DNA of 64,000 bases from Elusimicrobiota bacterium (lineage in GTDB: Bacteria; Elusimicrobiota; Elusimicrobia; UBA1565), in assembly GCA_002401485.1 (NCBI GenBank), contig NVTF01000002.1:4299-68298 (forward strand), read 5' to 3'. This document shows positions 14,120 through 60,108 of the stretch, one piece after another. The number at the start of each line of letters is the position of its first letter. Position 1 is the stretch's first letter. A program made the translations under genes and the position numbers. The notes beneath the pieces are model-generated. The model had not been told where the DNA came from. It did not search any database and saw only the letters and a list, made by a program, of their open reading frames with translations.

Positions 14120-14165
14120 CCCACCCCGCTTGACGGGGCGGGACTCACCTCGTACCCTATTCGCG

Positions 14166-40169: not shown

Positions 40170-41816
40170 CTACCGCATCAGCATCAAAACATGCGGCGGC
40201 GAATGATGCGGGTCCGCATAAGAAACCGTCCACCCCTGAACGGGGTGAATCAAGCGCACGCTGTGATCCGTGCCAGAATCGAAGTGCCTGGAAAGAAACG
40301 CCGTTCCCGCCATCTCCCAATCGACAACAAACATTTTCCCGCGTGCATTAAGCCACACCGATAAATCATCCGGAGCCGGTCCCTTTGGAATGGACGTACT
40401 TTGCGGCGGTTTTTTAAATTGATAGAAAGAAAGATCTCCGCTATGGCCGTAAATTACGCCGGAGGCACCGTCAACCCGGTCGAACACATCCCGGTAGCAG
40501 GCAAGCGGCCGGTCGGTTTCAAAGGGGCGCGCCCATCCCCACGTGGCGGCCTTAACCCCGAAAGAAGCGAGCAGTGTTCCCGAAAGAAGTGCGAACGCAG
40601 TCTTTCCCCAAAAGGGAGCCCGCGCCCCTAAACGGGGCTGCAGCACGTCCCACCCCCGGACGGCGCCTCCCGCCAATACGACAAAGACAATGGGATTGAG
40701 AATGCCGATGAAGCGCTCGCTTGAAGAAATCTGGTGATACCAGGCGAAAAGAACAAAAAAACCGCTATACAGAAAAATGGAAAACCATTTTCCGCCGTCT
40801 GTCCAGGACAAACGTCGGCGCCCGATCCATAATAGGCCAAGCGCGGCGACTGCCAAGGGCCATCGCAAGGCGTGCAGGACGGGAAAAGTTTTATCGGGTG
40901 ATAAACACGCGAACGCGACCGGAATAAATCCGAACATTCCAAAAAACAGACGACCCGCGATACCGGCCACTCCGTGAGTGCGCAGATACCCCATTGCCGA
41001 CAAATTTTCCCGTGCCGCCGTATCGACTTGTGACCAAGCATCAAGCCAGATCACATGCCGCGACGAGAAATTATAAGTGGGGTCCCCGTACAGCTGATAA
41101 TTGCCCCACCACAGCAGACTCGCGAACGGAATGAAACCCAGAAAAAACAACGGCGCTCGCTTTAAGAGCACCGCACGTCGACTTCGGTCCATCAAAACAG
41201 TCAAGGCCACCGCCCCGAACCAGGCATATACAAACAACTGGCCGGTTCCTTTCGCCAAGGATGCAATGCCCGCGATTGCACCCGCCCCAAACCACCATCG
41301 CCCATCCTCTTCAAACCCCTTTTGAACCGCAAACCAGCACAACAACGCCAATGGAGGCATCAAGACCTCGGCACGCAAGGACATGCTCAATGCGACATGG
41401 ATCCAATTCACTGAAATCATGAGGGCGGCAGCCAATCCTGCCCGTCGGTCGAATCGCTGGGCAGCAATCCGGTAAACCAGCACGACCAGGAGCGCCCCGA
41501 GCGTGAAGCTAAATAATTTTGAGAGCGTAAACGCGCTCGGCGCCGTGGACGCCCACAACGAAAGGATAAACGGATACAGGGGGAGATCGTTTCCCATCGG
41601 AACGCTGATACCTTCACGTATCGCCTGTGCGTACTGGAGCCAGGGATCCTGCGCGAAGCCCGGACGGCGATTCCAGCCGACCCAGGTCCACACGGTCAAC
41701 AGATAATTGGCCCCGGCAATCGCCGCAAAAACGACTGCGAGGCGAGTCCAAGAAATCTGAAAATTCCTTAAGAATCCTGCCATTTCCTGTATTAAACCTA
41801 ATTCTTGACGGAACAA
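40170..41816 (-). CDS. GT-C family glycosyltransferase (ArnT/PMT-like, GT39/GT83) membrane protein
   Basis: 548 aa with about 11 predicted TM helices, an N-terminal loop and a C-terminal soluble domain, as in 4-amino-arabinose/mannosyl transferases. The true start may be the internal Met (MAGFLRNF...). Confidence 0.65.
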   Translation of the reverse strand: MFRQELGLIQEMAGFLRNFQISWTRLAVVFAAIAGANYLLTVWTWVGWNRRPGFAQDPWLQYAQAIREGISVPMGNDLPLYPFILSLWASTAPSAFTLSKLFSFTLGALLVVLVYRIAAQRFDRRAGLAAALMISVNWIHVALSMSLRAEVLMPPLALLCWFAVQKGFEEDGRWWFGAGAIAGIASLAKGTGQLFVYAWFGAVALTVLMDRSRRAVLLKRAPLFFLGFIPFASLLWWGNYQLYGDPTYNFSSRHVIWLDAWSQVDTAARENLSAMGYLRTHGVAGIAGRLFFGMFGFIPVAFACLSPDKTFPVLHALRWPLAVAALGLLWIGRRRLSWTDGGKWFSIFLYSGFFVLFAWYHQISSSERFIGILNPIVFVVLAGGAVRGWDVLQPRLGARAPFWGKTAFALLSGTLLASFGVKAATWGWARPFETDRPLACYRDVFDRVDGASGVIYGHSGDLSFYQFKKPPQSTSIPKGPAPDDLSVWLNARGKMFVVDWEMAGTAFLSRHFDSGTDHSVRLIHPVQGWTVSYADPHHSPPHVLMLMR

Positions 41817-43261: not shown

Positions 43262-43292
43262 TACCGTAATAGAACCCGCACCCAACATCAGG

Positions 43293-43325
43293 AAAACCCT
43301 TCATTAAGAAGGGTTTTTTATTTTA
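43293..43325 (+). terminator. Rho-independent terminator after the desaturase
   Basis: Stem AAAACCCTT (43293-43301) / AAGGGTTTT (43309-43317) with loop cattaag, followed by TTATTTTATT. Confidence 0.8.
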
Positions 43326-43435: not shown

Positions 43436-46400
43436 ATGCTTCGCATCACGGCCGTATTTTTCTGCGTAATCGCATCCGTCCCGATTTTTTCGGGAACGTC
43501 GACAGCGGCTACCCCAACCAGCGTTCAATTTACGACAGCAACCACCGACTCTATCGAAATAACGTGGACGCTGGAGTCCTCTGGCCAGATTCCCTTGTAC
43601 GCTTTATCAACGGTGGAGAACTTTTCCACCACCATCGCCTCCGCTACGGGGGCGGTTGGACAAGAAAACATTCTGATTCAGTCCCTCCTCAAGAACACAA
43701 CCTATTATTTCAAGGTAAAGGTTTCTACGGAAAATGACTCGACCTATACCTCGACAATTGCACTGGCAACACTCGCGGCTCCGCCCGGTGCGGCTCCGAG
43801 CGTTGTTTTATCCTCAGGCGATATTATAGTCAGCTGGACCCACGACGGAAACGCAACCGACACAGAATATTCCGGAGAACTATATGAGGACCCCGCGTTT
43901 TTAACCCAACTCGCGGTGCTGCCGTTTCAAACCGGGTCATCATTCACTGCGACCGACCTTGATCCAAATACGACCTTCTACTTTCGAGTCCGAGCCCAAA
44001 ACCGACAAGGAATCGTAACGGGTTACCGAATTCTCCCTGCGGCTCTCACCCATTCCTCCCCCGCGGCGGCCTCCCAGCCAACGAACGTTTTCGGCGCGCG
44101 CATGACGGCGAATTGGATCACCGATCTGTCTGCCAACACCCAATACAAAGCGGAACTCTCCACGGTCGCGAATTTTACCGGTTCCAACGATCAAACGACC
44201 GCCTTCATCGCCGGAGCGAATTCAAACGAATTTGTAGGACTGCTCCTCGGCACGCAATATTTCACACGGGTCAAATCCCGCGGCTTCAACCTTGTTGAAT
44301 CGGTATACACGACGCTCCCAACCACAACGACGCAGGTATTCCTCGAAACGCCGCCTCCATCCAATGTCCTCTCCTCAAGCGCCACAACAACGACGCTCGG
44401 TTATTCCTGGACGATGCAGAATTCCAACGAAGCTCCGCTGATCGCGCTGGCCGATAATTTTGATTTTACTTCGCTGGTTTCCTCGCTCACCGCAGGCGTC
44501 AATCAATCGAGCCACCAATTCACGGGCCTCGCGATTAACAACACGTATTGGTTCAAAATCAAGGTATCTACGGCAAACGATTTTTTCTACACGGTCAAAA
44601 TAGAAACCGCAACGCATGCGGCAGATCCGATCGCGTCGCTCACCACAGTGCTCTCTTCGGCAGACATCAATGTCTCATGGACCGCCAACGGCAATCCCCC
44701 GGACACCCTCTACGATGTATCTATTTTCGATGACGATACGTATCAGAACTCTCTCGGAAAAAGCGGATTTACAACCGTCCTAAATTCCACCATTCCCACC
44801 CTCACCCCGGCAACAACCTTCTATTTCCACGTGCAAGCGTTCAACCGCTTACTCACGCCAACAACGGCGGTCATCCTAACCGAAGCCATGACGTTCGCCG
44901 AACCGCCGACGGCTTCCCAACCGCAGGATGTGCTCGATACGAAGTTTCGAACACACTGGAATCCCGGCCTCAACCCTCCGGGGGTCTTGTTCCGCGCCCA
45001 GCTTTCCACGGCAACAAATTTCACAGGGAGTCTCGATTTGACCTCCGGATTTGTACCCGATATTTCCAGTTTCACATTCTCGGGCTTAGCGCTGGGCAAG
45101 ACCTACTATACCCGGGTGCAGGCGAGAAACGCCGCGGGACAAACGACTGGTTTCGTTAATTTGCCTTCCACCGAAACCCTGAACCAGCCCGCCGCGCTCC
45201 CGCCGACCAACATTGTCGCCGGAACCGCAACATTAACCGCAATCGACCTTGATTGGAAGCTGGGCAGCCCGGGTCAAACTCCGCTGTTTGCCATCTCGGA
45301 GTCTTCCGATTTTGTCACGACCGTCTCCTCCATTACCGGCGGCATCGGACAGGAGATAGTCTCACTGGGCGGACTGAACGCGAACACGACGTATTATTTC
45401 AAGATCAAGGTATCGACCGTCAACGATATTTTTTACAGCGCGACGCTTACAACGGCAACCTTGGCGGCGGCCCCGCTCTCAGCGGCGCCCGTCGTTATTT
45501 CCACATCGGAAATCCAAGCGAACTGGACGCATGGCGTCAATCCTACCGACACGCAATATTCAGGCGAATACGCGCGCATCGCCGATTTCACTTCCCTCGA
45601 TGGATCCAGTGATTTTTCCGAGGGGACCTCTCTCAATGTCCCGGGACTGAAATCCAACACGACCTACTACTTTCGCATCCGCGCCCGAAATCGATTCGAA
45701 ATTCAAACCACAACAACAATTCTCCCCACGGCCGTGACGCTGGCGGAGGACGCAACGGCGGCGCTGTTGATCGACATCTTTAATACGAATTTCAAGCTGG
45801 AATGGTCCACAGGCACCAACCCGATCGGCACTGAATTTTTTGCCGAAACATCAACCGCAACCGATTTCAGCGGCTCCGCCGATATCAATTCCTCTTGGCT
45901 GCCCAATATTTCGAGCTTTACGTTTGTCGGCCTGACTCCGGACACAACCTACTATGCGCACGTTAAATCGCGCAACGTTGCGGCCGTTGAAACCGCGTTT
46001 ACGACAACACTCTCCACACTCACAACAACAATCGAAAACATTCCCGCTCCTACCAATATCCTCGCCGGCGATGTTTCCACAGCGACCCTGCGGATCAATT
46101 GGACTCTCGGCTCTCCCGGCCAAGCACCGCTTTACGCCTTCTCCACGAATTCGAATTTTACAACGACATTCTCTTCAGAAACCGGGACCGTGGGGCAAAA
46201 CACCAAGACGGTTCTTGGTTTAACCCCCAATGCGACCTACTACTTCAAAATTAAAGTTTCCACCGCCAATGACTTCCTCTTTTCCCCGACCTTTTCAACA
46301 GCAACACACGCGCAGGTCCCGGTCAGTTCTCCCACGCTCGTCACGTCATCGGGAAGCCTGCTGGGCCAATGGGGCGTCGATCAAAACCCGCCCGGAACCG

Positions 46401-49400
46401 AATACAGCGGAGAAATTTCAGACACATCCAACTTTGCGTCAATTCTGGCGGAAAGCCCCTTCGGTACCGACACCTTCGTCAGCATCACCAATCTCAATGC
46501 CAACACAACCTTTTATCTTCGCGTACGCTCTCGGAACTGGAACGGGGTTGAGTCATCCACGATCGCTCTGCCGACGGCAGTCACCCTTGCCGCCCGTCCC
46601 ACCTCGGGGCTGCCGACCGATGTACTCGACACGCGCCTGAGCGCCCATTGGAACGTCGGCAGCAATCCCGTGGGAACCGAATTCTCGGTTGAGATCGCAT
46701 CCGACCCGACCTTCACAGACGATTTCCAAGCCTCCGCGTTTCAGGCCGATATGACAAGTTTCACCTTCCTAAACCTGTCGCTTGACACGACGTATTACAC
46801 CCGTGTCCGCGGACGCAACCACGCAGGAGTGCCCAGTTCCTATTTTTCGTTGGTCTCCACAAAAACACTCCCGTTCGAGGCCGTGCTGCCGCCCATCAAC
46901 ATCCAAATCGCGACGATCACAACAACCGATCTCGGCTATTCCTGGACCTTGCTTTCCGCCGCCCAATCGCCCTTCTATGTCTTTGGAGAAGACCCGTTGT
47001 ATGCAGTCACCGTGACTTCGGAGTCTGGGGGTGTTAACCAAAGCAGCCATGTGGTATCAGGGCTCTCCATCAACACGTCCTACTTCTTCCAAGTCAAGGT
47101 CGCAACCGCACCCGATTTTTTCTACTCGATCACCTTCGAAACAGCAACCCATGCCAATCCCCCAACATCCCAGCCCAGCGTCGTGCTCTCGAGTGCAAAC
47201 ATCCAGGTCGACTGGAACGTCAATGGGAACCCGCCCGGGACTCAATTTCTCGCAGAGCTCTCATTTAACGCGGGGTTTGGCGGCATCGCGAGTGCCAGCC
47301 CATGGACCGGCGCGTCACAGTTTATCGCTCCCGGCCTGACGCCCAACACCACGTATTACATACGCGTTCGCGGGAGAAACAGTTCAAACGTTCATACCGC
47401 GACCGTTCCCTTAAACGCGCAGTGTACGTTCGCAGACGTCATAGCACCGTCACTTGCACCCGCACCCGGGCCGACCCAAATGGGTCTCACATGGGTGCGT
47501 GCGGCCAATCCGCTCGGAACCGAGTTCAAGTCGGAGATCGACGATGACCCGGCGTTTGGAACTCCTGATGCAACGACCTGGTTGACCGGAACTGCAACGA
47601 CTTTCTTCAATCTAACCCCGAACACGACCTATTATTCCCGCGTGCGGGCTCGCAATTGCCAAAACGTCGAAACCGCCAACATCATCCTCGCAACGACCGC
47701 GACCAGCGCGGCCATCCCCTCCGCCGACACGGCTTCCGGAATCACGATCAGCACCATCGTTGCGAATTGGGGAAGCAATGGGAATTCGGCCGGAACCGTG
47801 TACTCCGCGGAAATCGCGAGTGAAAACACGTTCGTCGTTAACTACGCATCCATCCCGTTCGCCGCTGTGTTTGCCTCAACCTTCACCGGGCTCGCAGCGA
47901 ACACGACGTATTACATACGGGTACGGGCCCGTAATTGGGCGGGATTAGAAACAGCCACCCAATTGCTGGCCCAAGAGTCCACCGACGCCGAGGGTCCCGG
48001 TTCCCAATCACCCACCGTGGTCACCAATGATCAAGTGACGCTCAACTGGTCCGCAGGCGGCAACCCCGCCGGAACTTTCTTCCAAACCGAGCGTTCGACC
48101 GACTCCAACTTTAACGGAACCTTATTCGCGTCTCCATTTTTGACGTCGACAAGCCATGCCTTTGGATCACTCATCGGAGGGACAACCTATTACTTCCGCG
48201 TGAAGGCGCGCAGTCACAACGGAAACGACACAGCCTGGGTCGCGCTTCCCTCAACCATGACCCTCCCCAGCCCTCCGACCTCGCAAATCCCGCAAAACGT
48301 TTTTGGATCACGATTGCGCGCCCATTGGGGAGTTCTTACCAATGCCATTGGGAGCCAATTCTTTGCCGCACTCTCAACAGGGACAAACTACACGGGGAGT
48401 CTCGACCAAAACACAGGATGGGTCACAGACCTCTCGAGCAACACCTTCCTGAGTCTCACCCTGGACACAACGTATTACACGCGGGTTAAGGCGAGAAACG
48501 CCAAGCTGGAGGAAAGCTCATTTACAAACCTGCCCTCCACACTGACCTTGAACTTTTTAGAGACGCTCCCACCGACATCGGTGAGCATCGATACCGTAAC
48601 CACGACATCGCTGGATGCCTCCTGGATTCTGGAAAACCCCACGATGGCGGCGCATTACAAGTTCTCAACACTCCTCAATTTCTCGACGATTGCATCGAGT
48701 GAGACGTTAGGGGTCGCCGTTTCCAGCATCAGCCTATCCCCCATCGCGCCAAACACAACCTTCTATTTTAAGATCAAGATATCCACCGCCGACGATCTCT
48801 TCTTCAGCGACGTCTTGTCGACTGCTACCGCTGTTCTCGATCCCGGAGTGCTCACCCCGGTGACGCTTTCCTCCGCGGATGTCGCAGCCCTCTGGGAGCA
48901 CACGGGAAATCCGGCGGGCACTGAATTCTTAGCGGAGCGGGCGACCAATCCGGGATTCTCGACCGGTCTTGCCAACGGAGGGTGGACGACCCTGAACGGA
49001 TCCACCTTCACAAGCCTAACGCCCAATACCACCTATTACCTCCGCGTTCGTTCGCGCGGACACAATTCGGCGGTCAAACCCCCCGTGGTACTGGGATCGA
49101 CGATCACACGCGCCGAAGTTCCGTCTAGTCCAACCAGCACTCTCCTGTCCTCCGCCGGAATTTTCGTTAGTTATTCGACCGGGTCCAATTCAGGGCCGAC
49201 GGAATTCCTGATTGAAATCTCAAGCGTCGCGGGATTTACACCTCTCACCGCAACAGCCGGATGGGCAACCATCCGCGAATCAACCTTTACGGGACTCATT
49301 CCAAATACGCTTTATTATGCGCGTGCGCAGGCGCGCAACGCGGCAAAAGAAGTCACTGCATTTGCAACGGTTCCCTCAACCCGCACATTCGCCCAACCTC

Positions 49401-52400
49401 CGAGCGCGCTTGGGCCCGTCCCAGTATTTGGCCGTACCTTAACGGTGAACTGGCTTGGGGGCAACAATCCCAGCGGCACCGAGTTTTTCGCGGAAGTCTC
49501 CACCGCAACCGGCTTCACAGGCTCCCTGGACCAAGACTCCGCGTGGATCACATCCCTGAGCCATACCTTTACCGGTCTTGCTCTGAACACGACGTATTAT
49601 TCCCGGGTGAGGGCTCGCAACGGAGACTTCGTCGCAACCCCGTTTACGGCTCTCTTCTCAACAATGACATTGCCGTTTGAGGATACACTGCCTCCCAATA
49701 ATATTCTCTACTCAACGGCCAGTCCAACCTCGGTGGATGTCTCCTGGAGCCTGCTCGTTGCGTTCCAAGCACCGTTTTACGCCCTCTCAACGGACCCAGA
49801 CTTCACCACAACGGCCTCTTCACAGGCCGGCATCCCCGGGCAGGAGAGTGTTTCAATCGGCGGGCTGACTGTCAATACGACGTATTACTTCAAAGTAAAG
49901 GTTTCGACCGCACAGGATCTTTTCTACAGCATGGCCATCGCAACGGCGACCGAAGCCGTTACACCGATCGTGGGGCCCGGGGTCACGCTTTCTTCATCGA
50001 ATATCTCTCTCACATGGGGCGGCAGCGCAAATCCGGCTGGGACCGAGTTTTTAGCCGAGGCTGCCGTTAATTCCGGATTTTCGGCCGGCCTTGCCAGCGG
50101 TCCATGGTCAGCAGGATTTTCATCAACCTTTAGCGCACTCTCAGTCAATACGACCTATTATCTGCGCGTCCGGGCGCGCAACCACTATGGGCATCCGACG
50201 CCGGCCGATGTCGCGGCGCCGATAGCCACGGACGCCGAACCTCCCACCGCGGGGGCCCCGACGAGCATCACCTCCGCGACCTTCGCCGCGAATTGGGGCG
50301 CCGCCTCAAACCCGGCCGGCACTTTGTTCCTGGTCGAGCGCGCGACAGACACCGCTTTTGGGGGCGCTCTCGTGAATTCGGGATGGTCCACCGCATTAGC
50401 CTCGACCTTTACGGCATTAATCCCGAACACGACCCATTTTTTGCGGGTGCGAGCCCGCAGCAACAACGGAAATCAAACAGCAAACACATCCTTACCCACG
50501 GTTCTGACGCTCGCCGAACCTCCCGCCAGCGCTCCCTTCACGAATGTATTCGATATCCAGCTGACGGCGCATTGGGGCCTGGGTGCAAATCCCAGCGGCA
50601 CGGAATTTTTCACCGAGTTATCGAGCGCCGCAGACTATTCAGGCAGCGCCGATCAAAATACCGGTTGGGCCGCCAATCTCTCCAGCAATACTTTCTTTGG
50701 ACTGGCGAAGGCGACAACCTATTACCTCCGCACAAAAGCGCGCAACGCCGCATTCATTGAAACAAGCTTTGTCCCCATCGGTTCAACCGTGACCCTGACG
50801 TTCGATGCGCTTTTGCCGCCCACTCAAATCGTCTTCACGACGGCGACGACAACGACCCTGGACGCGACCTGGACACTGGAGAACGCAAGCCAATCTCCGC
50901 TGTTCGCTCTATCCTCAGTCGATGACTTTGCGACAACAATCTCCTCACTGACAGGGAGCGTTGCACAATCGAGCGCGACCTTCAATGCATTGGCGATCAA
51001 CACCACGTATTACTTCAAGATCAAGGTTTCCACTGCCATTGACCTCTTCTACAGTTCTCCGATCTCAACGGCAACCCTTGCCGCCGTTCCCATCAGTTCT
51101 CCAAGCGTGATCATTTCGTCGGTAAGCCTGGCCGCACATTGGCTCCTGGGAGCAAACCCCACCGGGACTCAATTCCTGGCGGAGGCCGCGCTTGACACCT
51201 TGTTCTCCAGCGGGCTCTCCTCCAACGCGTGGACCTCGAATCTAGTCTCAAGCTTTACGGCATTATCGGTCAACGCGACCTACTATCTCCGCGTCGGCGC
51301 TCGAAATTGGAGCGGCATAAAAACAGCGACCGTCTCGCTGCCGACACGCGCAACCAACGCGGGACTTCCGGGAACCGGCACACCGGTCGTTCTTTCCTCC
51401 AACGACGCGCGGGGGGAATGGACCGCGGGCGTCAATCCGGCAGGCACACTCTTCCAGGCCTCACTCTCAACGGACTCCGCCTTCTCCCCCGCATCAACAG
51501 CGGCGTGGACCCCCTTGACCAATTCCACGTTTACCGGCCTGTCCGTGAATACAACCTATTACTGGCGCGTCCTCGCACGCAGTCATAACGGATCCCAAAC
51601 GGCGAATGTATCTCTCACAACCACGCCCACCCTCGCCGATATTCCGGTTGCAGGCACACCGGCCGCCATTTCCTCTACGAATGTGCGCGCCGATTGGAAC
51701 TCCGGGAACAACCCCGCAGGCACTGAGTTCCGAGCGGAACTGGCGACGGATTCCCTCTTCACAACCAATACCGCCTCCGCAAGCTGGACAATCCTGACAG
51801 ACTCCACCTTTACGGCGCTCACGCCCAATACAACCTACTATACGCGGGTTCGGGCCCGAAACCACGCAGGCGTCGAAACGTCTACGGTCGCATTAACAGA
51901 GGTTCCAACCAACGCAGCTATTCCGATCTCGCTGACTCCCGTCATTCTTTCGACAGCGGACTTCTCACTCTCCTGGACGGCAAACAACAACCCTGCGGGG
52001 ACCCTGTTCCTTGCGGAAATGGGCACCGACCCCGATATTTCGGCGGGTGTGCAGACGTCTGGATGGATCAACGCAACCTTCACCACCTTCACCGCGCTTT
52101 CTCCCAACACAACGTTTTACGCTCGCGTGCGGGCGCGCAACCACGCGGGAGTCGTGACGACAACCGACGCGGTGCGCACCGCAGTGAGTGCCGCCAAGGA
52201 TCCCGTCTCCATTGATCCCGTCGTATTATCGTCTGCAGACATCAGCGCCCGCTGGGATACCGATGGCAATCCATCCAATACGGAATTTTTTGCAGAAGCC
52301 GCGCTCAATTCCGGATTCTCCGTTGGACTCATGAACAACGGCTGGCTTACAGGATCGGCATCGACATTTACAACCCTCACGCCCAACACCAGTTATTATC

Positions 52401-55400
52401 TCCGCGTCAAAGCCCGCAGCCATGCGGGAGTCGAAACGGGCTTCACCACGCTTCCCACAACAATGACCTTCTCCGACCCGCCGACCTCCCAGCCGCTCAC
52501 CCGCGTCTTCGGGTCGAAGCTCACGACGCATTGGGGATCCGCCTCCAATCCGCCGGGGACGCGTTTTTCCGCGGAAGTATCGACAGCAACCGATTTCACC
52601 GGATCCAATGACCAAACAACCGCATTCATAGCCGAATTGAGCTATACCTTTGTCGGCCTGATTCTTGATACGACGTATTATTCCCGCGTTCGTGCTGAGA
52701 ATCTTCGCGGCGCGCTCTCTGCTTACACGGCTCTCCCCACAACAACAACACTCGCCAGCGAAACGCTGCCTCCAACCAACATCTCATTTGACACCGCCAC
52801 AGCAACCAGTCTCGATGCTTCGTGGATCCTCGATAACCCGACCCAAACACCTTTCTACGCCCTCGACGTATCTTCGGCATTTGCGGCTCCGGCCTCTTCG
52901 GTGACGGGATCGGTCGGCCAATCGAGCGCTTCGATCGGGGGACTAATCCCCAACACCACCTATTGGTTTGTGATCAAGGTTTCGACCGCGTTGGATATTT
53001 TTTACAGCATCCCGTTAGCATCACCGACGTTGGCAGCGGCCCCGACCTCAGGTGCCTCCGGTGCGGTTTCCGACGGCTCGATTCTTGCGGTCTGGAATGC
53101 CAACGCCAATCCTGCCGGAACAGAATTTTTCGCCGAACGCGCCCTTGATGCAGCGTTTACAGCCAGCCCGACGAACTCGGGCTGGATCACCAACACGAGT
53201 TTTATCTTCAGCCCGCTCTCTGCCAACACAACGCAATATATTCGCGTCCGCGCGAGAAATCTCAATCGTGTGGAAACGTCAACCGTTTCCCTTGGCGCCG
53301 TAGTCACGCTTGCCAAACTCCCCAGCGCCCCCGCCAGCGTCGGTCTCTCTTCGGCTGATGTATTCGTCTCCTGGTCTACCGGAACCAATCCCACGGGAAC
53401 CCAATTCTTGGTTGAAATATCGACCCACGCCGGGTTCGCAACTCTCGCGGATTTTGCGGGATGGACGGATTTTCGCGAATCCACGTTTACGGGGCGAACC
53501 CCGAATACGCTCCACTATAGCCGCGTTAAGGCCCGCAACGCCGTCAACATTGAAACGAGCTTCGTCGCTATCCCGTCCACCTGGACGTTTGCCGAGCAGC
53601 CTTCCACCGGGGCCCCAACAAACATTCTAGGAGAAGCAATTACAACGACCTGGGGGATTGGCGGCAACCCCGCAGGAACCGAATTCTTCGTTGAAATATC
53701 CACGGCGGTGAGTTTCCTTGGGAACGCCGACCAGAACTCCGGCTGGGTCACAACCTCCTCGCATACATTTAACGGCCTTATACTGGCCACCACCTATTAC
53801 TCCCGCGTTAAAGCGCGCAACGGCGTTTTACAAGAAACCGCCTTCACAATCCTGGCCGCAACCCTCACCCTTCAAAGTCAATCTGCCCTTCCCCCGACAA
53901 ATATTCAGTTTACAACCGCGAGCGTCGTATCCCTGGACCTCTCTTGGAACATGAGAAACCCAACGGAAGCACCGCTGTACGCCCTGTCGTTGTTTCCCAA
54001 CTTCATCACCACGATCTCCTCCCAAACGGGGACCCTCGGGCAAGAAAACGTCACTCTTACCGGCCTCGGCGCCAACACCACGTATTACTTTAAGATAAAG
54101 GTCTCCACCAGCCAGGATCAATTCTACAGCTCGGTCATCAGCACCGCCACACAAGCGAAGGACCCGGGCGCGCCTGCGGCTGTCGCAATCTCTTCCAACG
54201 ACTTGCAACTGGATTGGAATGCCAACGGCAATCCCGCCGCGACCGAATTTCTAGCGGAGGCGGCATTGGACTCCGGGTTCACGGTTGGTTTGACCAGTGG
54301 CCCATGGGCAGCCGGAACCTCCTCAACATTCACGTCCTTGAGCGTGAACACCACTTATTTCACCCGTGTACGCGCCCGCAACCACAATCATCATCACACG
54401 GATCTCGTTTCCGCCTCGGCCGCGGCAACACTCGCCGAACCTCCCAGCACGAGTGCCATCGTTTTTGCCAGCACATGGATTACGGTTAATTGGATTCTCG
54501 GCGCCAATCCCGCCGGAACCGAATTCCGTGCGGAGGCTTCAACCGATGCAGTCTTCGCAGCGGCATTCTCCCAATCGGGCTGGGTCACAGGATTCTCCGA
54601 GACCTTCACGTCCCTAATCCCCAATACCACGTATTACCTGCGGCTGCGCGCACGCAGCCACTCCGGGACGGCAACCACCGCCTCCCAATTTCCAAACGTG
54701 CATACCCTTGCGTTCACACCGGGCTCACTCAGCCCGGATCGAAAATTCGCCACACGCATCACCAACCAATGGCTTCGCCTTTCCAACCCGCTGGTCACCG
54801 AGTTTTTCACTGAAATTTCCACCGCCGCTGATTATTCCGGCGCCGCCGACCAAAATTCAAATTGGGTTGCGAATTCGAGTCACACCTTTACCGGCTTGAT
54901 CGTCAATACCACTTATTATTCCCGGGTCAAAGCGCGCAACGGGCTCGGCGTTGAAACGGCAATCACGATGCTGCCGACAACAACAACACTCTTAACCGAA
55001 ACCCTTCCCCCCGACGGCATACGCTTCGATACCGCGACGGTATCGACGCTTGATGTCTCGTGGCAGCTGGATAACCCGACGCAAACACCCTTCTACGCCC
55101 TGTCACTCGTTTCAAATTTTGCAACGACGATCTCCTCGACCATCGGCGCATTAGCGCAATCGAGCGCCTCAATCGGCGGCCTTTCCCTTAACACGACGTA
55201 TTGGTTTACGATCAAGGTTTCAACCGCCATCGATCTTTTTTACAGCAATCCCATCGCGACCCCGACGCTCGCCGGCGTCGCGGCAAGTTCTCCAAGCGTC
55301 ACACTAACTTCCACCAGTCTTCAAGCGCATTGGCTGATCAATGGAAATCCCGGGGGGACTGAGTTCCTGGCGGAGGCCGCGCTGGACCCATCCTATACAA

Positions 55401-58400
55401 GCGGCGTCGCGTCAGGCACATGGGCGACGCCCCTGGTTTCAACGTTTACGGCGTTGTCGGTCAATGCCACCTATTATCTGCGCGTTCGCGCGCGCAATTG
55501 GGCGGGCATAGAAACCTCAACCCTAACACTGCCGGAAACGGTCACGCACGCCGCGCTGCCTTCGACAGCCGCAACAGCCGCTCTTTCAACCGGGTCGCTT
55601 GCTGCCACTTGGACTGCGAATTCAAACCCGGCAGGGACTCTCTATATTGCGGAAACCTCCACATCGGCGGCCTATGACACCCTCGCGACTACCGGATGGA
55701 ACGCCGTGGCGTCGGCGACATTCACCGCCCTCCTGCCCAATGCCACCTATTATCTGCGTGTACGCGCGCGCAATCACGCGGGCGTCGAAACCGTGAACGT
55801 CAATTTCGATCCGCGCGCAACCGACGCACGCGACCCGCTCACCGGCACACCGGTGACGCTTTCCTCCGCGGATCTGCGGGCGGTGTGGGGTGCAGACACA
55901 AACCCGGCCTCAACCCACTACTTCAGCCAGATCTCACTCGACGCCGCGTTCACAACGGGATTGGCCTCAGCGGGCTGGGTAACCGGAACAACCTCTACCT
56001 TCTCCGCCTTGGTCCCCAATACGAGTTATTACCTCCGGGTAAAGGCGCGCAGCCATGGAGGCGTCGAATCCGGCTACACCACACTCCCGACAACCATGAC
56101 CTTCGCCCGACCGCCGGCTTCCCTCATCGGAGAACAGGTGTTTGCCACTCAGCTGACCGCACGCTGGGACGTTTTGAACAACCCGGTCGGCACGGAATTT
56201 TTGGCCCAATTGTCGACCGCTGCGAATTTCAGCGGAACCTTGCTGCCCTCCGGGTGGACGACAAATTCGAGCCATACATTTACAGGTTTGAGCAACACGA
56301 CGACCTATTACTCCCGCGTGCAAGCGAGGAATGCACATCTGGCGGTGTCGGCATTCACGTCTCTGCCGACCACGGTAACCCTGACAGCGGAAGCGCTGCC
56401 GCCGACGAATATCCTCTTCGCTACCTCAACTTCAACCACCCTCGATGTGTCGTGGACACTAGACAATGCAAGCCAGGCGGCCTTCTTCGCCTTAGGAATC
56501 TCCTCCAATTTTGCAGCACCGATTTCCTCCGCGACCGGCAATGTCAATCAATCAACGGCTTCGTTTGGCGCGCTCACCGCGAATACAACCTACTGGTTCC
56601 GCATCAAGGTTTCGACGGCATCCGATTTGTTCTACAGCGTCCCGATCGCAACCATGACGCGCGCTTCAGCTCCCCTCGCAGGCACACCCGTCGCCTTGTC
56701 TTCCGTTGCCCTGCGTGCGGGTTGGACCGCCAACGGAAATCCCGCAGGAACTCAATTCCTGCCGGAGGCCGCGCTCAACACCGTCTTCACCGTCGGCGTT
56801 GTGAGCGGAACGTGGACAACCGGCCTCACCCAGGATTTCTCAGGCCTTAGTTCCAACGCCACCTACTATCTTCGCGTGCGCGGCAGGAACGGACATCACA
56901 TCGAAACCGCCACAACCACATTGACGGCGACCGCCACCCACGCCGGCGCGCCGGGATCGGCGGCCGCCTCCCAGCAGTCCTCCACCACCGTCCGGGTCAA
57001 TTGGACGGCGAACGGAAATCTCTCGCCGACATCCTATGTGGCTGAAATCGCGACATCCGCGGCGTTCGCTTCGCTAACCGCTTCCTCGACAACCTTCGAA
57101 ACATTCGCGGACTTCGCCGGTCTCGATACCAGCAAACTCTACTTCTCCCGAGTATTGGCGATTGGGCATGGTGGGACCAACAGTGTAAACACCTCCCTGC
57201 CCGACGCGGTGACGCTTGCCACTGCACCAACCGGCGGCTCCATTATTTCCGTATTCGGGCAAAGCGTAACATTGGACTGGAACGTTAACGGAAATAATGT
57301 CGGCACTGAATTTCAACTCGAACATTCCACCGCCGCCAATTTCACCGGAACCCTCGTAAAATCATTGTGGATCACGCAGTCGTCGCACACCTTCGCAGCA
57401 CTGCAGGCAGTCACGACCTATTATTTCCGGGTCAAAGCCCGCAATCCGGGGTTAGTCGAGACCAACTTCCTCGTTCTTCCCTCTACGCTGACGTTAACTC
57501 CACCCAACGCACCCACCGCTGTCGCCTTCACCAATGCGACGATTGCTTCGCTGGACCTCGCCTGGACGCATGGCAACCTCGGCATCACCCCGCTTTACGC
57601 CCTTTCGACGCGCGACGACTTCGCGACCACGGTCAGTTCTCAAACGGGCGTAGTCAATCAAGAAACCGTCACGTTATCGGGACTTTCCGCCAACACAACC
57701 TATTATTTCAAGGTCAAATTCTCGACCGAAACCGATGACGGGTATTCCTTCCCGATCGCGACCGCGACGCTCGCCGCAGTCCCGTCGGCCCCGAGCCAAA
57801 CCGCCGTTACCACGCACTCCGTTTCCGCCTCCTGGAGCGGAGGCTCCAACGGACCCAATACCGTATATATTTGGGAACTGGACGATGATCCTGGATTCGG
57901 TTCCGTTGACGCCTCCAGCAGCACACTCACAACGGCCGCGACCATTGCCGGTCTCTTCGGAAATACCCGCTACTTCGGACGTGTGCGCGCCGTGAACCAC
58001 CAAGGCAACCCCTCGGAGAACTCCAGCCTCGGCGCCTTCGCTACCCTCGCACGGGCGCCCATCGCGGTTGCGTCGCCCTTTGTGACGGTAACCTTCACGA
58101 GCGTCACGGTTCAGTGGACGGCATTTCCTTCCTCACCCTCCAGCACCTCAGCGCAAGGTTTTGTTGTGGAAGCGTCCACCGCCTCCGATTTCTCGGGAAC
58201 AATTTCCTCCAATTCCATCCTGGCGTTGACGGACCGGCTCGCCCTCGCGGGACTCGCCGATTTGCCGACATTATTCTTCCGCATTGGATCGCTCAATCCG
58301 GATCTCACGCCTAATTATCTATCCCTAGGCTCGACCCTCCCACTCACGGCCGCAACGACCGGCCAGATGTTCATGAATGCAGAGCCGTTTAGCGTGACAC

Positions 58401-59077: not shown

Positions 59078-60108
59078 GGATACTCAGCGCGCTTCTTACT
59101 GTACTGCTCGCGAGTCAGCCCGCGTCCGCCCTCAGCAGCAACCGCGGGGGAGCGGCGATGGAATTCCTTCGCATCGGCGCAGGAGCGCGGGCGCTTGGAA
59201 TGGGAGATGCGTTTGCGCCCATCGCCGAGGGCGCCGACAGCGTTTATTGGAACCCGGCAGGCATGGTCCAAAGTCGGCATCTCGAAATCTCGGCGACGCA
59301 TATCGATATGCTCGAGTTTTTCAGTCATGACAACTTCGCCGTTATCAAACCCTTCCCCAAATCCCGCAACGCAATTGGATTCTCCGCGACCTTCTTCTCG
59401 CAGGACAGCCTCAATCGCGTGTCCAACACAAACCAACAACTCGGCTCTTTTAGACCCCACAGCGAGTCATTTTCCTTTGCGGTGGCTCATGCCTTCGGCA
59501 AAGGCGATACACTGGCGGACAGCGGAGGTCTCTACGATTTCAAAGACAGGTCCATTTATGAGATCAACCGACGCGGAGACCGGAGCCGTCACTTCCGCGC
59601 CGGCAATGTAATGGTCGGAGCCGCCGTAAAACACGTACGGGAAACTCTCAATACACGAACGGCGACCGCGTTGGCCATCGACTTCGGAGTACTCGCACGT
59701 CCGGAGTCGATCCCGGAATTATCAATTTCCGGAACGATTCGAAATTTCGGATCGCGACCGAAATTCATAAACGAACTGCAGGATCTACCGACGGAATTCT
59801 CGGCTGGAGCCGCGTACAACATTTCGAGCCAACGCCGACGCTTCCTAACCGCCGTGGAAGCCATCGTCCCAATCTACGGAACACCGTACGGAAAATTAGG
59901 ATTCGAATATTCGCTCGCGATTTCCGGTTCCAGCTTCATTTCTTTCCGAGGCGGCTATAAATCGTTGTCGGCGCCGACGCTGGGAATCGCCAGCGGCGTC
60001 ACAGGAGGCATCGGGTTCGGGTTCGGTCGTTTTACGTTCGATTTTGGATTCCAGCCGATGGGGGATCTTGGGGAGGCTTATCGTGGCAGCGCCGGTTTCA
60101 GATTCTAA
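59074..60108 (+). CDS. PorV/PorQ-family-like outer-membrane beta-barrel protein (putative T9SS cargo shuttle)
   Basis: ATG at 59074 overlaps the giant gene's stop (ATGA). Signal peptide MRILSALLTVLLASQPASA; the N-terminal AAMEFLRIGAGARALGMGDAFAPIAEGADSVYWNPAGM matches the hallmark of PorV/PorQ-family proteins; C-terminal ...GSAGFRF ends in Phe as in OM barrels. The 58969 start given in the ORF table lies inside the giant gene. Confidence 0.6.
   Translation: MRILSALLTVLLASQPASALSSNRGGAAMEFLRIGAGARALGMGDAFAPIAEGADSVYWNPAGMVQSRHLEISATHIDMLEFFSHDNFAVIKPFPKSRNAIGFSATFFSQDSLNRVSNTNQQLGSFRPHSESFSFAVAHAFGKGDTLADSGGLYDFKDRSIYEINRRGDRSRHFRAGNVMVGAAVKHVRETLNTRTATALAIDFGVLARPESIPELSISGTIRNFGSRPKFINELQDLPTEFSAGAAYNISSQRRRFLTAVEAIVPIYGTPYGKLGFEYSLAISGSSFISFRGGYKSLSAPTLGIASGVTGGIGFGFGRFTFDFGFQPMGDLGEAYRGSAGFRF

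What the first reader, a model, noticed from the sequence alone, without database searches (positions are those of the whole stretch)
43500..58300. Hierarchical A-B(n)-C super-repeat architecture with variable B-unit copy number inside a 15.6-kb gene
Three distinct FN3-like unit classes alternate in fixed order. A: ...NTTYYFKIKVSTAxDxFYS. B: ...NPAGTEF.AE...NTTYYLRVRARNHAGVET. C: ...FG..LTAHW...GTEFF.E.STA..F.GS.DQN..W...TTYYSRVKARN.

The first four super-repeats are A-B-C (~845 nt each). Later ones are A-B-B-C (~1,120 nt), and three are expanded to 3, 4 and 5 B units (1,390, 1,681 and 1,950 nt). The pattern suggests growth by unequal recombination of B units. If the protein is a fibre, this would tune its length. 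Nucleotide identity between units is ~80%, so the expansions are old. A collapsed assembly is therefore less likely, though still possible.
Basis: seen in the sequence. Interest (0 to 1): 0.6.

Follow-up and report, generated by a model that had tools for sequence, protein, structure and literature searches.

The report
Giant headless FN3 fibre with nested repeats
The 15.6-kb gene of an uncultivated Elusimicrobiota bacterium encodes a secreted protein made of 53 fibronectin-type-III domains in a strict, anciently conserved A-B(n)-C pattern; it is a real and tidy example of a known kind of giant bacterial surface fibre, not a new mechanism.

Summary
ORF 43436..59077 (5213 aa) holds 53 tandem ~93-aa FN3 units.

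One number is wrong. Same-class units are 47-53% identical at DNA level (maximum 68%), not ~80%. No 25-mer is repeated in the gene, so assembly collapse is excluded.

Four orthologues from separate assemblies keep the same B counts, although synonymous sites are saturated. Their only length difference is a 13-unit block (53 versus 40 units). Growth was mostly by copying whole super-repeats and a 13-15-unit block; only one super-repeat shows local B duplication. The array is now frozen, not tunable.

After the array come a ZU5/GPS-like domain with an invariant H-[F/L]-S motif and a T9SS-type C-terminal domain. A PorV/PorQ-family gene overlaps the stop codon (ATGA). Relatives carry protease heads on short FN3 stalks; this protein has none.

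Best reading: a roughly 185-nm outer-membrane-anchored fibre. This is inferred, not shown.

The parts
43291..43319 (+). Terminator-like hairpin after the upstream desaturase gene. It marks the giant gene plus the PorV-like gene as a separate transcription unit (inferred).
   Evidence: 12-bp stem followed by a T run; sequence read
43436..59077 (+). Giant ORF of 5213 aa: signal peptide, 53 FN3 units, ZU5/GPS-like domain, T9SS-type C-terminal domain (CTD).
   Evidence: the same 5213-aa gene is called on an ENA metagenome contig; P0030 is identical to it
43436..43507 (+). Sec-type signal peptide, about aa 1-24 (MLRITAVFFCVIASVPIFSGTSTA). The boundary is approximate.
   Evidence: Read from the translation: basic n-region, 15-residue hydrophobic core, small residues before the likely cleavage site. 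No predictor was run.
43487..46864 (+). Super-repeats 1-4, each A-B-C (units u01-u12). Boundaries: 43487-44329, 44330-45175, 45176-46021, 46022-46864.
   Evidence: The unit phase comes from the HMM. True domain borders lie about 8-10 residues downstream (AF2 strands).
46865..48544 (+). Super-repeat 5: A-B-B-B-B-C (u13-u18).
48545..50791 (+). Super-repeats 6 and 7, each A-B-B-C (u19-u26). Boundary between them at 49666/49667.
50792..52744 (+). Super-repeat 8: A-B-B-B-B-B-C (u27-u33). The inner units u29-u31 look like a local tandem duplication.
52745..54982 (+). Super-repeats 9 and 10, each A-B-B-C (u34-u41). Boundary between them at 53866/53867.
54983..56374 (+). Super-repeat 11: A-B-B-B-C (u42-u46).
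56375..57484 (+). Super-repeat 12: A-B-B-C (u47-u50).
57485..58333 (+). Terminal, incomplete super-repeat 13: A51-B52 plus a degenerate FN3-like unit u53 (19 bits to the unit HMM).
   Evidence: u51-u53 have 1:1 orthologues in L006, L003 and P0031
49094..52744 (+). Copy 1 of the third-level block duplication (u21-u33).
   Evidence: colinear diagonal; reciprocal best pairs 21/36, 22/37, 24/39, 28/43, 32/45; 4200-nt lag peak
53294..56374 (+). Copy 2 of the block duplication (u36-u46). It has two fewer B units than copy 1.
58412..58789 (+). ZU5/GPS-superfamily-like beta-sandwich domain (aa 4993-5118). It carries the invariant H-F-S tripeptide at aa 5107-5109 (58754..58762), a putative autoproteolytic site.
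   Evidence: AF2 and Foldseek hits to ankyrin ZU5; H, S and F invariant in 15 aligned homologues; distant relatives pass the Pfam GPS and ZU5 cut-offs on the same stretch
58811..59074 (+). T9SS-type C-terminal beta-sandwich domain (CTD), about aa 5126-5213.
   Evidence: TIGR04183 21.5 bits (cut-off 23), FlgD_ig 23 bits (cut-off 27), PorZ C-terminus E = 2e-6; pLDDT about 90, with Foldseek hits to PorZ, PorU, the RgpB CTD and the RemA CTD
59074..60108 (+). PorV/PorQ-family outer-membrane beta-barrel gene. Its probable start ATG at 59074 overlaps the giant gene's TGA stop (ATGA).
   Evidence: NF033709 scores 111 bits against a cut-off of 90; overlap read; signal-peptide-like MRILSALLTVLLASQPASA; the same gene order occurs in 17 other Elusimicrobia loci
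40170..41816 (-). PMT_2 (GT-C) glycosyltransferase gene. A possible accessory, because it is syntenic with the fibre gene in L003 and L004.
   Evidence: Pfam PF13231 E = 9.6e-14; synteny by tblastn. Any link to the fibre is conjecture.

Best explanation
The gene encodes a giant (5213 aa, roughly 0.55 MDa) secreted cell-surface fibre of an uncultivated Elusimicrobiota bacterium.

Shown here:
- After a signal-peptide-like N-terminus the protein is an uninterrupted string of 53 FN3 domains.
- The string has three nested repeat levels: the ~93-aa unit, the super-repeat A-B1-(B)n-C, and a block of about three super-repeats.
- This order is conserved unit for unit in orthologues whose synonymous sites are saturated.
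- All three unit classes are under purifying selection.
- The units are too diverged to recombine, or to mislead an assembler.

Inferred:
- The array grew long ago, by unequal crossing-over mostly at super-repeat and block level. B-unit gain or loss happened in only a few super-repeats. The array then diverged until it froze.
- It derives from a family of surface proteins in which a short FN3 stalk displays an N-terminal protease. This lineage lost the head and expanded the stalk.
- The chain is exported by Sec.
- Its T9SS-type C-terminal domain is recognised by the co-translated PorV/PorQ-like barrel. The barrel shuttles it across, or docks it on, the outer membrane, as SprF does for SprB or PorQ for PorZ.
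- A ZU5/GPS-like domain at the base self-cleaves at H-F|S. That would leave the fibre held non-covalently, as a breakaway joint.
- Fully extended, the rod would reach about 185 nm (53 x ~3.5 nm).
- Its role would be adhesion or spacing. The periodic, most constrained A domains would act as the functionally distinct nodes.
For: Architecture:
- ORF and unit order. Statistics.
- FN3 fold for all three classes. Pfam fn3 E = 4.9e-40. AF2 model pLDDT 91 and pTM 0.78. Foldseek top hits are fibronectin FN10-12, TM 0.61-0.66.

Conservation:
- The JBFIEP01 MAG contigs L007, L002 and L006 carry 1:1 counterparts of all 53 units at 51-85% identity.
- L003 and P0031 carry 40 units. Their first 33 are positionally equivalent to the window's, with the same B counts.
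- pS is 0.74 (saturated) against pN 0.17 for A, 0.22 for B and 0.23 for C.

Duplication history:
- Colinear block u21-33 <-> u36-46.
- Local duplication of u29-31.
- A coherent first-B subclass, permutation p = 0.0003.
- Frozen state and no collapse: longest exact repeat 24 nt, no repeated 25-mers, within-class DNA identity at most 0.68.

C-terminal module:
- CTD.
- PorV-family gene with ATGA overlap, and the same gene order in 17 other loci.
- ZU5/GPS-like domain.
- Bacterial ZU5 autopeptidases in surface proteins are described in PMC3482391.
- Anchoring of a cargo by an adjacently encoded barrel is shown for SprB-SprF (PMC9143113, PMC12618676).

Headless state:
- The first FN3 unit starts at aa ~20.
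- Relatives have Peptidase_S8 or Peptidase_M10 heads. This includes P0050, which is the L005 protein. L005 shares the PorV-like gene and the tail. Its close relative L004 (49% identical) also shares the upstream PMT_2 gene.
Against: - No experiment supports export, surface location, cleavage or any binding activity.
- The CTD falls just below both curated cut-offs (21.5 vs 23 bits; 23 vs 27 bits).
- No T9SS core gene (SprA/Sov, PorK/L/M/N, PorU) lies in the 64-kb window. T9SS is described in the literature as restricted to Bacteroidota.
- The ZU5-like domain model is only moderately confident (pLDDT 50-80). Its ZU5 matches have TM about 0.47. The window domain itself hits no Pfam family or PDB sequence.
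- Conserved B counts may reflect only the lack of recombination substrate, not selection for length.
- Adjacent-domain dissimilarity is not significantly greater than random (p = 0.06).
- Whether the 13-unit difference is a gain or a loss could not be settled.
Confidence: 0.7

Rival explanations
1. The repeat pattern is an assembly artefact, either collapsed or chimeric repeats from short-read metagenome assembly.
For: The sequence comes from a metagenome. In the related MAG JBFIEP01 the orthologue is broken into three contigs inside the array, so the region is hard to assemble at low coverage.
Against: - No repeated 25-mer exists in the gene, and the longest exact repeat is 24 nt.
- Units are at most 68% identical at DNA level.
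- Four separately assembled orthologues from different samples are colinear, with the same B counts.
- The 15.6-kb reading frame is open and under purifying selection.
Confidence: 0.02
2. The protein is not a cell-attached fibre. It is shed as a matrix or biofilm component. The ZU5/GPS-like cleavage, or removal of the CTD, would release the FN3 rod into the surroundings, where rods associate laterally through the periodic A domains.
For: - The invariant H-[F/L]-S site lies at the base of the array.
- Zhang et al. propose that ZU5 autopeptidases release filamentous surface proteins (PMC3482391).
- Many T9SS cargoes are released after CTD removal (established knowledge; abstracts).
- The composition is mucin-like: 27% Ser+Thr, acidic, almost no Cys.
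Against: - In the model the strand after the cleavage site (SLFAPFF) is part of the beta-sandwich. In GAIN, SEA and FIIND domains this arrangement keeps the two fragments together (own knowledge).
- Tight translational coupling to a PorV/PorQ-type barrel, conserved in 17 other loci, fits a stoichiometric anchor better than a catalytic shuttle.
Confidence: 0.2
3. The A/B/C classes carry no functional meaning. The 'grammar' is only the fossil of serial segmental duplications of an ancestral three-domain segment. It persists because the copies can no longer recombine.
For: - B is heterogeneous and overlaps C in clustering (silhouette 0.15; u35 clusters with C).
- Relatives show many other unit orders, such as ABB x6 and BBBcAB7AB.
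- Adjacent-domain identity avoidance is not significant.
- There is no recombination substrate left.
Against: - Class identity at every position has survived synonymous saturation, with pN of only 0.17-0.23.
- A domains are the most constrained and keep invariant class-specific residues: P10, W27, S52, N70, F75, K78, T81, D84.
- The first-B subclass is position-specific.
- C always carries the longer linker before the next A.
Confidence: 0.3
4. The FN3 array is a stalk or ruler for a separately encoded partner, for example a protease or lectin that docks on the distal A domain. That partner would replace the head domain that relatives carry in cis.
For: Relatives with the same tail have Peptidase_S8 or Peptidase_M10 heads on 5-16 FN3 units. 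The window protein, L003 and P0031 start directly with an A unit.
Against: No candidate partner gene lies beside the gene. Its neighbours are a desaturase, a PMT_2 glycosyltransferase, a histidine kinase and a porin. There is no evidence of a docking module.
Confidence: 0.1

Closest known systems
Titin A-band super-repeats (7- and 11-domain patterns of Ig and FN3 domains)
   Same: A long string of FN3-fold domains in which distinct domain classes recur in a fixed order. Position-specific subclasses are more alike between super-repeats than within them, and larger blocks of super-repeats are duplicated. This describes titin from my own knowledge.
   Different: Titin is eukaryotic, intracellular, and mixes Ig with FN3 domains. 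Its periodicity matches the thick filament. Here all domains are FN3, the protein is secreted, super-repeat length varies from 3 to 7 units, and no periodic partner is known. The resemblance is an analogy of architecture, not homology of the array.
SprB-SprF of Flavobacterium johnsoniae, and other T9SS cargo / adjacent shuttle-anchor barrel pairs (type B CTD with PorP-like; PorZ with PorQ; PorU with PorV)
   Same: A giant repetitive surface protein with a C-terminal beta-sandwich signal, encoded next to an outer-membrane barrel that binds it (PMC9143113, PMC12618676). Here the barrel belongs to the PorV/PorQ family. The CTD model matches the PorZ, PorU, RgpB and RemA CTDs.
   Different: The phylum is Elusimicrobiota, not Bacteroidota. 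The barrel is PorV/PorQ-like rather than PorP/SprF-like. The CTD is sub-threshold for TIGR04183. No T9SS core components were seen. A ZU5/GPS-like domain precedes the CTD.
ZU5 / GPS (GAIN) / Nup98 autoproteolytic superfamily, including bacterial ZU5 domains of polymorphic toxins and surface proteins (Zhang et al. 2012, PMC3482391)
   Same: A beta-sandwich ending in H-[F/L]-[S/T]-x-F-(A/Q)-hydrophobic. This is the same tripeptide and following strand as the PIDD and Nup98 HF|S and GPS HL|T sites (own knowledge). A relative, P0092, passes the Pfam GPS cut-off on this stretch (SHLTTFAMLAG), and P0118 passes the Pfam ZU5 cut-off.
   Different: The window domain itself matches no Pfam model. It lies at the base, just before the CTD, not at the N-terminus as in RHS toxins. 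Cleavage is untested.
Giant tandem-domain adhesins of bacteria (SiiE with 53 BIg domains, Ebh FIVAR-GA repeats, SasG/Aap alternating G5-E, LapA, MpIBP)
   Same: Half-megadalton to megadalton secreted rods made of tens of small beta-sandwich or helical modules. Some have two alternating module types (own knowledge).
   Different: Those arrays are usually one or two module types, often nearly identical and variable in copy number between strains, and they end in ligand-binding heads. Here there are three classes plus positional subclasses, at most 69% protein identity between units, a copy number fixed across species, and no head.
Huge proteins (>5000 aa) of Elusimicrobiota noted in surveys
   Same: Elusimicrobiota are reported as enriched in proteins over 5000 aa that remain uncharacterised (PMC11573180; bioRxiv 10.1101/2023.11.21.568195). 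This protein is one of them.
   Different: The passages read from those surveys do not mention this family's architecture, its tail module or its super-repeat grammar.

Membership tests
Fibronectin type III (FN3) domain array | Sequence match to the Pfam fn3 model | tested here: met
   PF00041 scores E = 4.9e-40 with 6 stretches in aa 1-1000. Single units are marginal: A 23.6-26.8 bits, B 24.2 bits or none, C 20.5 bits or none, against a cut-off of 25.
Fibronectin type III (FN3) domain array | Seven-strand beta-sandwich fold for each unit class | tested here: met
   The AF2 model of A7-B8-C9 has mean pLDDT 91.1 and three sandwiches of 6-7 assigned strands. The Foldseek PDB top hits are human fibronectin FN10-12 (E = 1.5e-14, TM 0.61-0.66) and other FN3 tandems.
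T9SS cargo (type A C-terminal sorting domain) | HMM match to TIGR04183 / PF18962 at or above the curated cut-off | tested here: not met
   TIGR04183 scores 21.5 bits against a cut-off of 23. PF13860 FlgD_ig scores 23 against 27. PF18962 is not hit. This is a near-miss, not a clear failure.
T9SS cargo (type A C-terminal sorting domain) | C-terminal ~80-aa beta-sandwich with the CTD fold | tested here: met
   The last ~70 aa have pLDDT about 90. Foldseek hits: PorZ 5m11 (E = 2.4e-5), PorU 6za2, RgpB CTD 5ag8, RemA CTD 8gl6_D (TM 0.65, rmsd 3.0 A). The domain aligns with the CTDs of Elusimicrobia FN3 proteins that carry PF13860 or PF18962.
T9SS cargo (type A C-terminal sorting domain) | Genome encodes the T9SS translocon and motor (SprA/Sov, PorK/L/M/N) and the PorU sortase | not testable with these tools
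   None is in the 64-kb window, but these genes are normally scattered around a genome. No paper in the library links T9SS to Elusimicrobia or Elusimicrobiota.
PorV/PorQ family outer-membrane protein (downstream gene) | NCBIfam NF033709 at or above the cut-off | tested here: met
   111.2 bits against a cut-off of 90. The equivalog models PorQ, PorV and PorV2 are all far below their cut-offs, so this is a family member and not an orthologue of any one of them.
ZU5 / GPS autoproteolytic superfamily | Conserved H-[F/L]-[S/T] cleavage tripeptide followed by a hydrophobic strand at the C-terminal end of the domain | tested here: met
   The window has DHFSLFAPFF. H, S and the following F are invariant in 15 aligned homologues from the loci, and the motif is visible in all 19.
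ZU5 / GPS autoproteolytic superfamily | Sequence or fold match to ZU5 / GPS | tested here: inconclusive
   The window domain has no Pfam or PDB sequence hit. Foldseek matches ankyrin ZU5 3f59_D and 3kbt_C at probability 1.0 but TM only 0.45-0.47, on a model with pLDDT 50-80. There is a transitive link: relatives found with the domain profile pass the Pfam GPS cut-off (P0092, 27.8 > 22.5) and the ZU5 cut-off (P0118, 23.7 > 21) on the same stretch.
ZU5 / GPS autoproteolytic superfamily | Actual self-cleavage | not testable with these tools
   This needs protein chemistry.
Titin-like super-repeat organisation (an architectural class, not a homologous family) | Fixed order of domain classes, with positional homology between super-repeats exceeding similarity within a super-repeat | tested here: met
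   A-A identity is 0.46 and C-C 0.44, against A-B 0.18 and A-C 0.20. The first-B subclass scores 0.465 against 0.371 for first-versus-last B (p = 0.0003). The grammar has p = 3.7e-15.
Contingency / copy-number-variable repeat locus | Repeat copy number differs between close relatives, with near-identical repeats as recombination substrate | tested here: not met
   B counts are identical in four orthologues. There are no repeated 25-mers. The only difference is one 13-unit block between the deeply diverged 53-unit and 40-unit forms.

The most novel reading that the evidence does not exclude
Elusimicrobiota may carry a widespread, undescribed two-gene export-and-anchoring cassette. In it a cargo ends in a GPS/ZU5-type self-cleaving joint plus a T9SS-like CTD, and is translationally coupled to its own PorV/PorQ-like barrel. 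Such a cassette might work without, or with a reduced, Bacteroidota-type T9SS. The joint would act as a shear-release link, like the GAIN domain of adhesion GPCRs or the SEA domain of mucins. In this lineage the cassette carries a titin-like 'ruler' fibre. Its super-repeat grammar, conserved through synonymous saturation, would place the constrained A domains at defined intervals for a periodic partner or for lateral self-assembly.
Probability: 0.15. Interest if true: 0.7.

Novelty: new variant of a known kind. Interest (0 to 1): 0.4.

Why it matters
The protein is a clean bacterial example of a titin-style, three-level domain grammar. The order has stayed fixed unit for unit while synonymous sites saturated. 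This lets one ask whether domain order in giant bacterial fibres is selected, or merely frozen once the repeats diverge.

It also puts a concrete architecture on one of the 'huge proteins' that surveys flag as enriched but uncharacterised in Elusimicrobiota.

The tail module may matter more than the repeats. It combines a ZU5/GPS-like H-[F/L]-S domain, a T9SS-type CTD and a translationally coupled PorV/PorQ-like barrel. The domain is found in about 3100 cluster representatives, and the cassette in 17 other loci fetched here. That points to CTD/PorV-type surface display outside Bacteroidota, and to self-cleaving joints in bacterial surface proteins. Both are testable by proteomics or heterologous expression.

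Practically, the work shows the gene is correctly assembled and that its repeats cannot be used as a strain-level copy-number marker.

Tried and rejected
- Tandem Repeats Finder on 42-60 kb found nothing. The units are too diverged, so a unit HMM was used instead.
- The word-indexed protein search returned only short, distant Elusimicrobia fragments for a super-repeat query. It returned 2 hits for the tail and 1 for the middle-domain profile. The orthologues came from the genome scan and the exhaustive HMMER search.
- I tested whether alternating classes keep neighbouring domains dissimilar, which would avoid misfolding. Mean adjacent identity is 0.276 against 0.296 for random orders, p = 0.06. 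This is not significant, so I do not claim it.
- I tried to decide whether the 13-unit difference (53 vs 40 units) is a gain or a loss. Concatenated identities are copy1-copy2 0.545, L003-copy1 0.60 and L003-copy2 0.57. This slightly favours an old duplication with later loss in the 40-unit lineage, but it is unresolved. The breakpoint fits A34/A47.
- Pfam and PDB sequence searches with the ZU5-like domain found nothing directly.
- Literature searches for T9SS or PorV in Elusimicrobia/Elusimicrobiota, and for bacterial FN3 'super-repeat' adhesins, found nothing relevant.
- No T9SS core genes or mobile-element genes are in the window. The context is housekeeping: lysS-like, ilvE, pheA, M16 peptidase, Na:Ala symporter, aldehyde dehydrogenase.
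- The assembly-artefact explanation is rejected (and the orthologues).
- A lipoprotein signal was considered for Cys10 and rejected, because no lipobox precedes it.

Full report
**1. Checking the observation**

The window holds one open reading frame, 43436..59077 on the + strand, of 5213 codons. I built a profile from motif-anchored seeds and searched it back against the protein. It finds 53 consecutive units of 90-99 aa covering aa 18-4966, which is window 43487..58333.

In the unit alignment three classes are obvious:
- Class A (13 units) is 90 aa. It has a two-residue deletion after the conserved PL(Y/F) and ends in NTTYYFKIKVSTAxDxFYS.
- Class C (12 units) is 95-99 aa. It has GTEFFAE.STA..F.GS.DQ.. 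and a longer C-terminal linker.
- The other 28 units are class B, 92-94 aa, apart from the degenerate last unit, u53.

The super-repeat lengths are 843, 846, 846, 843, 1680, 1122, 1125, 1953, 1122, 1116, 1392 and 1110 nt.

The grammar cannot be chance. Only 1.7e7 of 4.7e21 possible orders of 13 A, 28 B and 12 C obey it (3.7e-15). The DNA autocorrelation peaks at 279, 846, 1122, 4200 and 5616 nt. The protein autocorrelation peaks at 93, 282, 374 and 1400 aa.

Average-linkage clustering splits A from everything else first. C forms its own cluster with one intruding B (u35). B is heterogeneous.

One stated number is wrong. Codon-aligned DNA identity within a class averages 0.53 (A), 0.47 (B) and 0.51 (C), and never exceeds 0.68. 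It is not ~80%. Tandem Repeats Finder accordingly reports nothing.

**2. Is the assembly sound?**

Yes, on three grounds:
- The longest exact repeat inside the gene is 24 nt, and no 25-mer occurs twice. A short-read assembler therefore has nothing to collapse.
- The identical 5213-aa gene is called on an ENA metagenome contig, and it is a cluster representative in the protein library (P0030).
- Related genomes assembled by other groups reproduce the order, as set out in section 4.

**3. What the units are**

Pfam fn3 scores E = 4.9e-40 over the first 1000 residues. Single units are marginal.

I ran an AlphaFold2 model of super-repeat 3 (A7-B8-C9), using the window's own units as the alignment. 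It has mean pLDDT 91 and pTM 0.78, and shows three beta-sandwiches of six or seven assigned strands. Its best PDB matches are three-domain fragments of human fibronectin (FN10-12, E = 1.5e-14, TM 0.61-0.66).

So A, B and C are all FN3 domains, arranged as an extended rod. The unit phase from the HMM is offset by about 8-10 residues from the structural domain borders.

**4. Orthologues and the history of the array**

I scanned one genome per species with the A-unit alignment. This returned 50 loci, most of them Elusimicrobia/Elusimicrobiota MAGs. Class-specific HMMs and per-unit BLAST then gave the following.

- **JBFIEP01 MAG.** Its three contigs (L007, L002, L006) together carry one-to-one counterparts of all 53 units at 51-85% identity. 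Nearly every unit's best hit is the same-numbered unit of the window. The one near-tie, for unit 34, is between u42 and u34.
- **L003 (PFUL01000001)** has a 40-unit gene of about 4000 aa (stop-to-stop frame 4022 aa). Its first 33 units follow the window's order. Most have the same-numbered window unit as best hit. The exceptions fall on the paralogous units of the duplicated block. An A unit most like u34/u42 follows, and then counterparts of u48-u53.
- **P0031**, found by the exhaustive HMMER search, is a fourth orthologue. It has 4004 aa and the same 40-unit architecture. It is 64% identical to L003 and 53% identical to the window.

The B counts 1,1,1,1,4,2,2,5 are therefore identical in all four lineages. 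The only difference is a 13-unit block. It is compatible with a crossover between A34 and A47.

Between the window and JBFIEP01, synonymous sites are saturated (pS 0.74). Non-synonymous differences are 0.17 (A), 0.22 (B) and 0.23 (C). This means strong purifying selection on every class, strongest on A, and a very old, stable architecture.

Inside the window protein, the identity matrix shows a colinear diagonal u21-u33 <-> u36-u46. The reciprocal best pairs are 21/36, 22/37, 24/39, 28/43 and 32/45. This is a third repeat level: super-repeats 6-8 correspond to 9-11. The only length change between the copies is 5 versus 3 B units.

- Units u29-u31 are each other's closest relatives. That is the one clear local B duplication.
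- The first B after each A forms a coherent subclass (0.465 within the subclass against 0.371 first-versus-last; p = 0.0003). The true grammar is therefore A-B1-(B)n-C.
- Whether the 13-unit difference is a gain or a loss could not be decided.

My conclusion is that the array grew mainly by duplication of super-repeats and blocks, with occasional B gain or loss. It then diverged until recombination became impossible. It is a frozen array, not a tunable one.

**5. The rest of the protein and its neighbours**

*N-terminus.* It reads as a Sec signal peptide (no predictor was run). There is no head domain, because the first FN3 begins at about aa 20.

*After unit 53.* A 247-aa tail follows. An AF2 model (pLDDT 67 overall, about 90 for the last 70 residues) matches T9SS C-terminal domains: PorZ, PorU, the RgpB CTD and the RemA CTD (TM 0.65, rmsd 3.0 A). 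The HMM scores are just under the cut-offs: TIGR04183 21.5 against 23, and FlgD_ig 23 against 27.

*Between the array and the CTD.* A ~125-aa beta-sandwich lies here. Foldseek pairs it with ankyrin ZU5 domains (probability 1.0, TM about 0.47).
- It ends in DHFSLFAPFF. H, S and the following F are invariant in the homologues from 19 loci.
- H-F|S is the self-cleavage tripeptide of PIDD and Nup98, and H-L|T/S-x-F-A-hydrophobic is the GPS site of adhesion GPCRs (own knowledge).
- The window domain itself matches no Pfam or PDB sequence.
- A profile of the domain finds 3105 cluster representatives at E <= 1e-3. In most full-length matches the domain ends about 95 aa before the C-terminus.
- Among the distant hits, P0092 passes the Pfam GPS cut-off on exactly this stretch (SHLTTFAMLAG), and P0118 passes the Pfam ZU5 cut-off.
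- Zhang et al. 2012 (PMC3482391) unite ZU5, GPS and the Nup98 domain in one autopeptidase superfamily. They report the superfamily in large bacterial surface proteins.

*Downstream gene.* Its NCBIfam PorV/PorQ-family score is 111 bits against a cut-off of 90. Its likely start codon overlaps the giant gene's stop as ATGA at 59074-59077. The same order, an FN3-array gene with this tail followed by a PorV-like gene, occurs in 17 other Elusimicrobia loci.

*Upstream.* A terminator-like hairpin follows the desaturase gene. A PMT_2 glycosyltransferase gene is syntenic in L003 and L004. The wider window is housekeeping.

*Relatives with the same tail.* They are usually 1200-1600 aa, with a protease or other non-FN3 head and about 4-7 FN3 units.
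- P0032 and P0064 have a Peptidase_S8 head.
- P0050 has Peptidase_M10 + CARDB + He_PIG. P0050 is the protein of L005. L005 shares the PorV-like gene and the tail with the window. Its close relative L004 (49% identical) also shares the upstream PMT_2 gene.
- The window lineage is therefore a headless, stalk-expanded derivative of this family.

**6. Mechanism**

*Shown:*
- The domain composition and order.
- Conservation of that order in four lineages, under purifying selection.
- The tail homologies.
- The gene coupling.

*Inferred:*
- Sec export.
- Recognition of the CTD by the co-translated PorV/PorQ-like barrel, which shuttles or anchors the protein at the outer membrane. This would work as shown for SprB-SprF and proposed for other cargo-barrel pairs (PMC9143113, PMC12618676).
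- Self-cleavage at H-F|S, leaving a non-covalent joint. In the model the strand after the site is part of the sandwich.
- An extended rod of about 185 nm (53 x ~3.5 nm per FN3; own knowledge).
- A role in adhesion, spacing or matrix formation.

*Weak points:*
- The CTD is sub-threshold.
- No T9SS core genes were seen, and the literature treats T9SS as specific to Bacteroidota.
- The ZU5-like model is only moderately confident.
- There is no experimental data at all.

**7. Comparison with what is known, and novelty**

Giant tandem-domain surface proteins are common. Elusimicrobiota are already noted as rich in uncharacterised proteins over 5000 aa (PMC11573180; bioRxiv 10.1101/2023.11.21.568195).

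What is unusual here is the strict three-level grammar, which resembles titin's super-repeats, and its unit-for-unit conservation through synonymous saturation. I found no description of this architecture, or of the ZU5/GPS + CTD + PorV cassette in Elusimicrobiota, in the searchable literature.

I rate it a new variant of a known kind, of moderate interest. The repeat finding is correct and neat but not mechanistically surprising. The tail cassette is the more promising lead.

Noticed in passing
window 58412..58789 (H-F-S at 58754..58762): Between the FN3 array and the CTD lies a ~125-aa beta-sandwich ending in DHFSLFAPFF. The H-[F/L]-S-x-F motif is invariant in homologues from 19 loci. It resembles the PIDD/Nup98 HF|S and GPS HL|T self-cleavage sites. 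About 3100 cluster representatives carry the domain, and two distant ones pass the Pfam GPS or ZU5 cut-offs on the same stretch.
   Followed up: yes
window 59074..60108; also L003, L004, L005, L008 (twice), L011, L012, L017, L018, L022, L029, L030, L031, L034, L039, L043, L047, L051: A PorV/PorQ-family barrel gene directly follows the CTD-bearing FN3 gene. In the window the two overlap as ATGA. This looks like a conserved two-gene cassette in Elusimicrobiota, a phylum for which the searched literature reports no T9SS. L008 has two such cassettes on one contig.
   Followed up: partly
window 40170..41816 (-): A PMT_2 (GT-C fold) glycosyltransferase gene, with a faint archaeal STT3-like hit, lies two genes upstream. 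It is syntenic with the fibre gene in L003 and L004. The fibre is 27% Ser+Thr and has 85 N-x-S/T sequons, one in nearly every NTTYY motif. Glycosylation of the fibre is conceivable but untested.
   Followed up: partly
P0032, P0050 (= L005 7295..13819), P0064; L004 7298..13822: Relatives with the same tail carry N-terminal protease heads. P0032 and P0064 have subtilase S8. P0050, the L005 protein, has matrixin-like M10 + CARDB + He_PIG. These sit on short FN3 stalks. The window protein, L003 and P0031 have no head at all.
   Followed up: yes
L018, L022, L030, L031, L037, L040, L043, L047, L051: A conserved family of ~1215-1240-aa proteins with 10 FN3 units (pattern roughly A-b-b-a-b-b-a-B-B-c) and the same tail. 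Most are followed by a PorV-like gene. It is recurrent in Elusimicrobiales MAGs. L009 has a period-3 array, (A-B-B) x6.
   Followed up: partly
window 44000..58000: GC skew is about -0.18 to -0.20 throughout the giant gene, against about -0.03 to -0.11 in most of the window. The coding strand is C-rich, presumably from the Thr/Ser/Ala/Pro-rich composition and not from replication.
   Followed up: no
window 9733..10914 (-), 13151..14119, 14082..15584, 15591..16184, 16181..17560, 28716..29918, 29938..31626, 34717..35400: Several sizeable ORFs (197-562 aa) matched no NCBIfam family. The four largest (14082..15584, 16181..17560, 28716..29918, 29938..31626) also matched no Pfam family at E <= 1e-5. 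They were not examined further.
   Followed up: no
window 48857 and 55850: The single longest exact repeat in the gene is 24 nt, CCGGTGACGCTTTCCTCCGCGGAT. It encodes PVTLSSAD at the start of units u20 and u45. It is the only stretch near the minimal length for RecA-type recombination.
   Followed up: no
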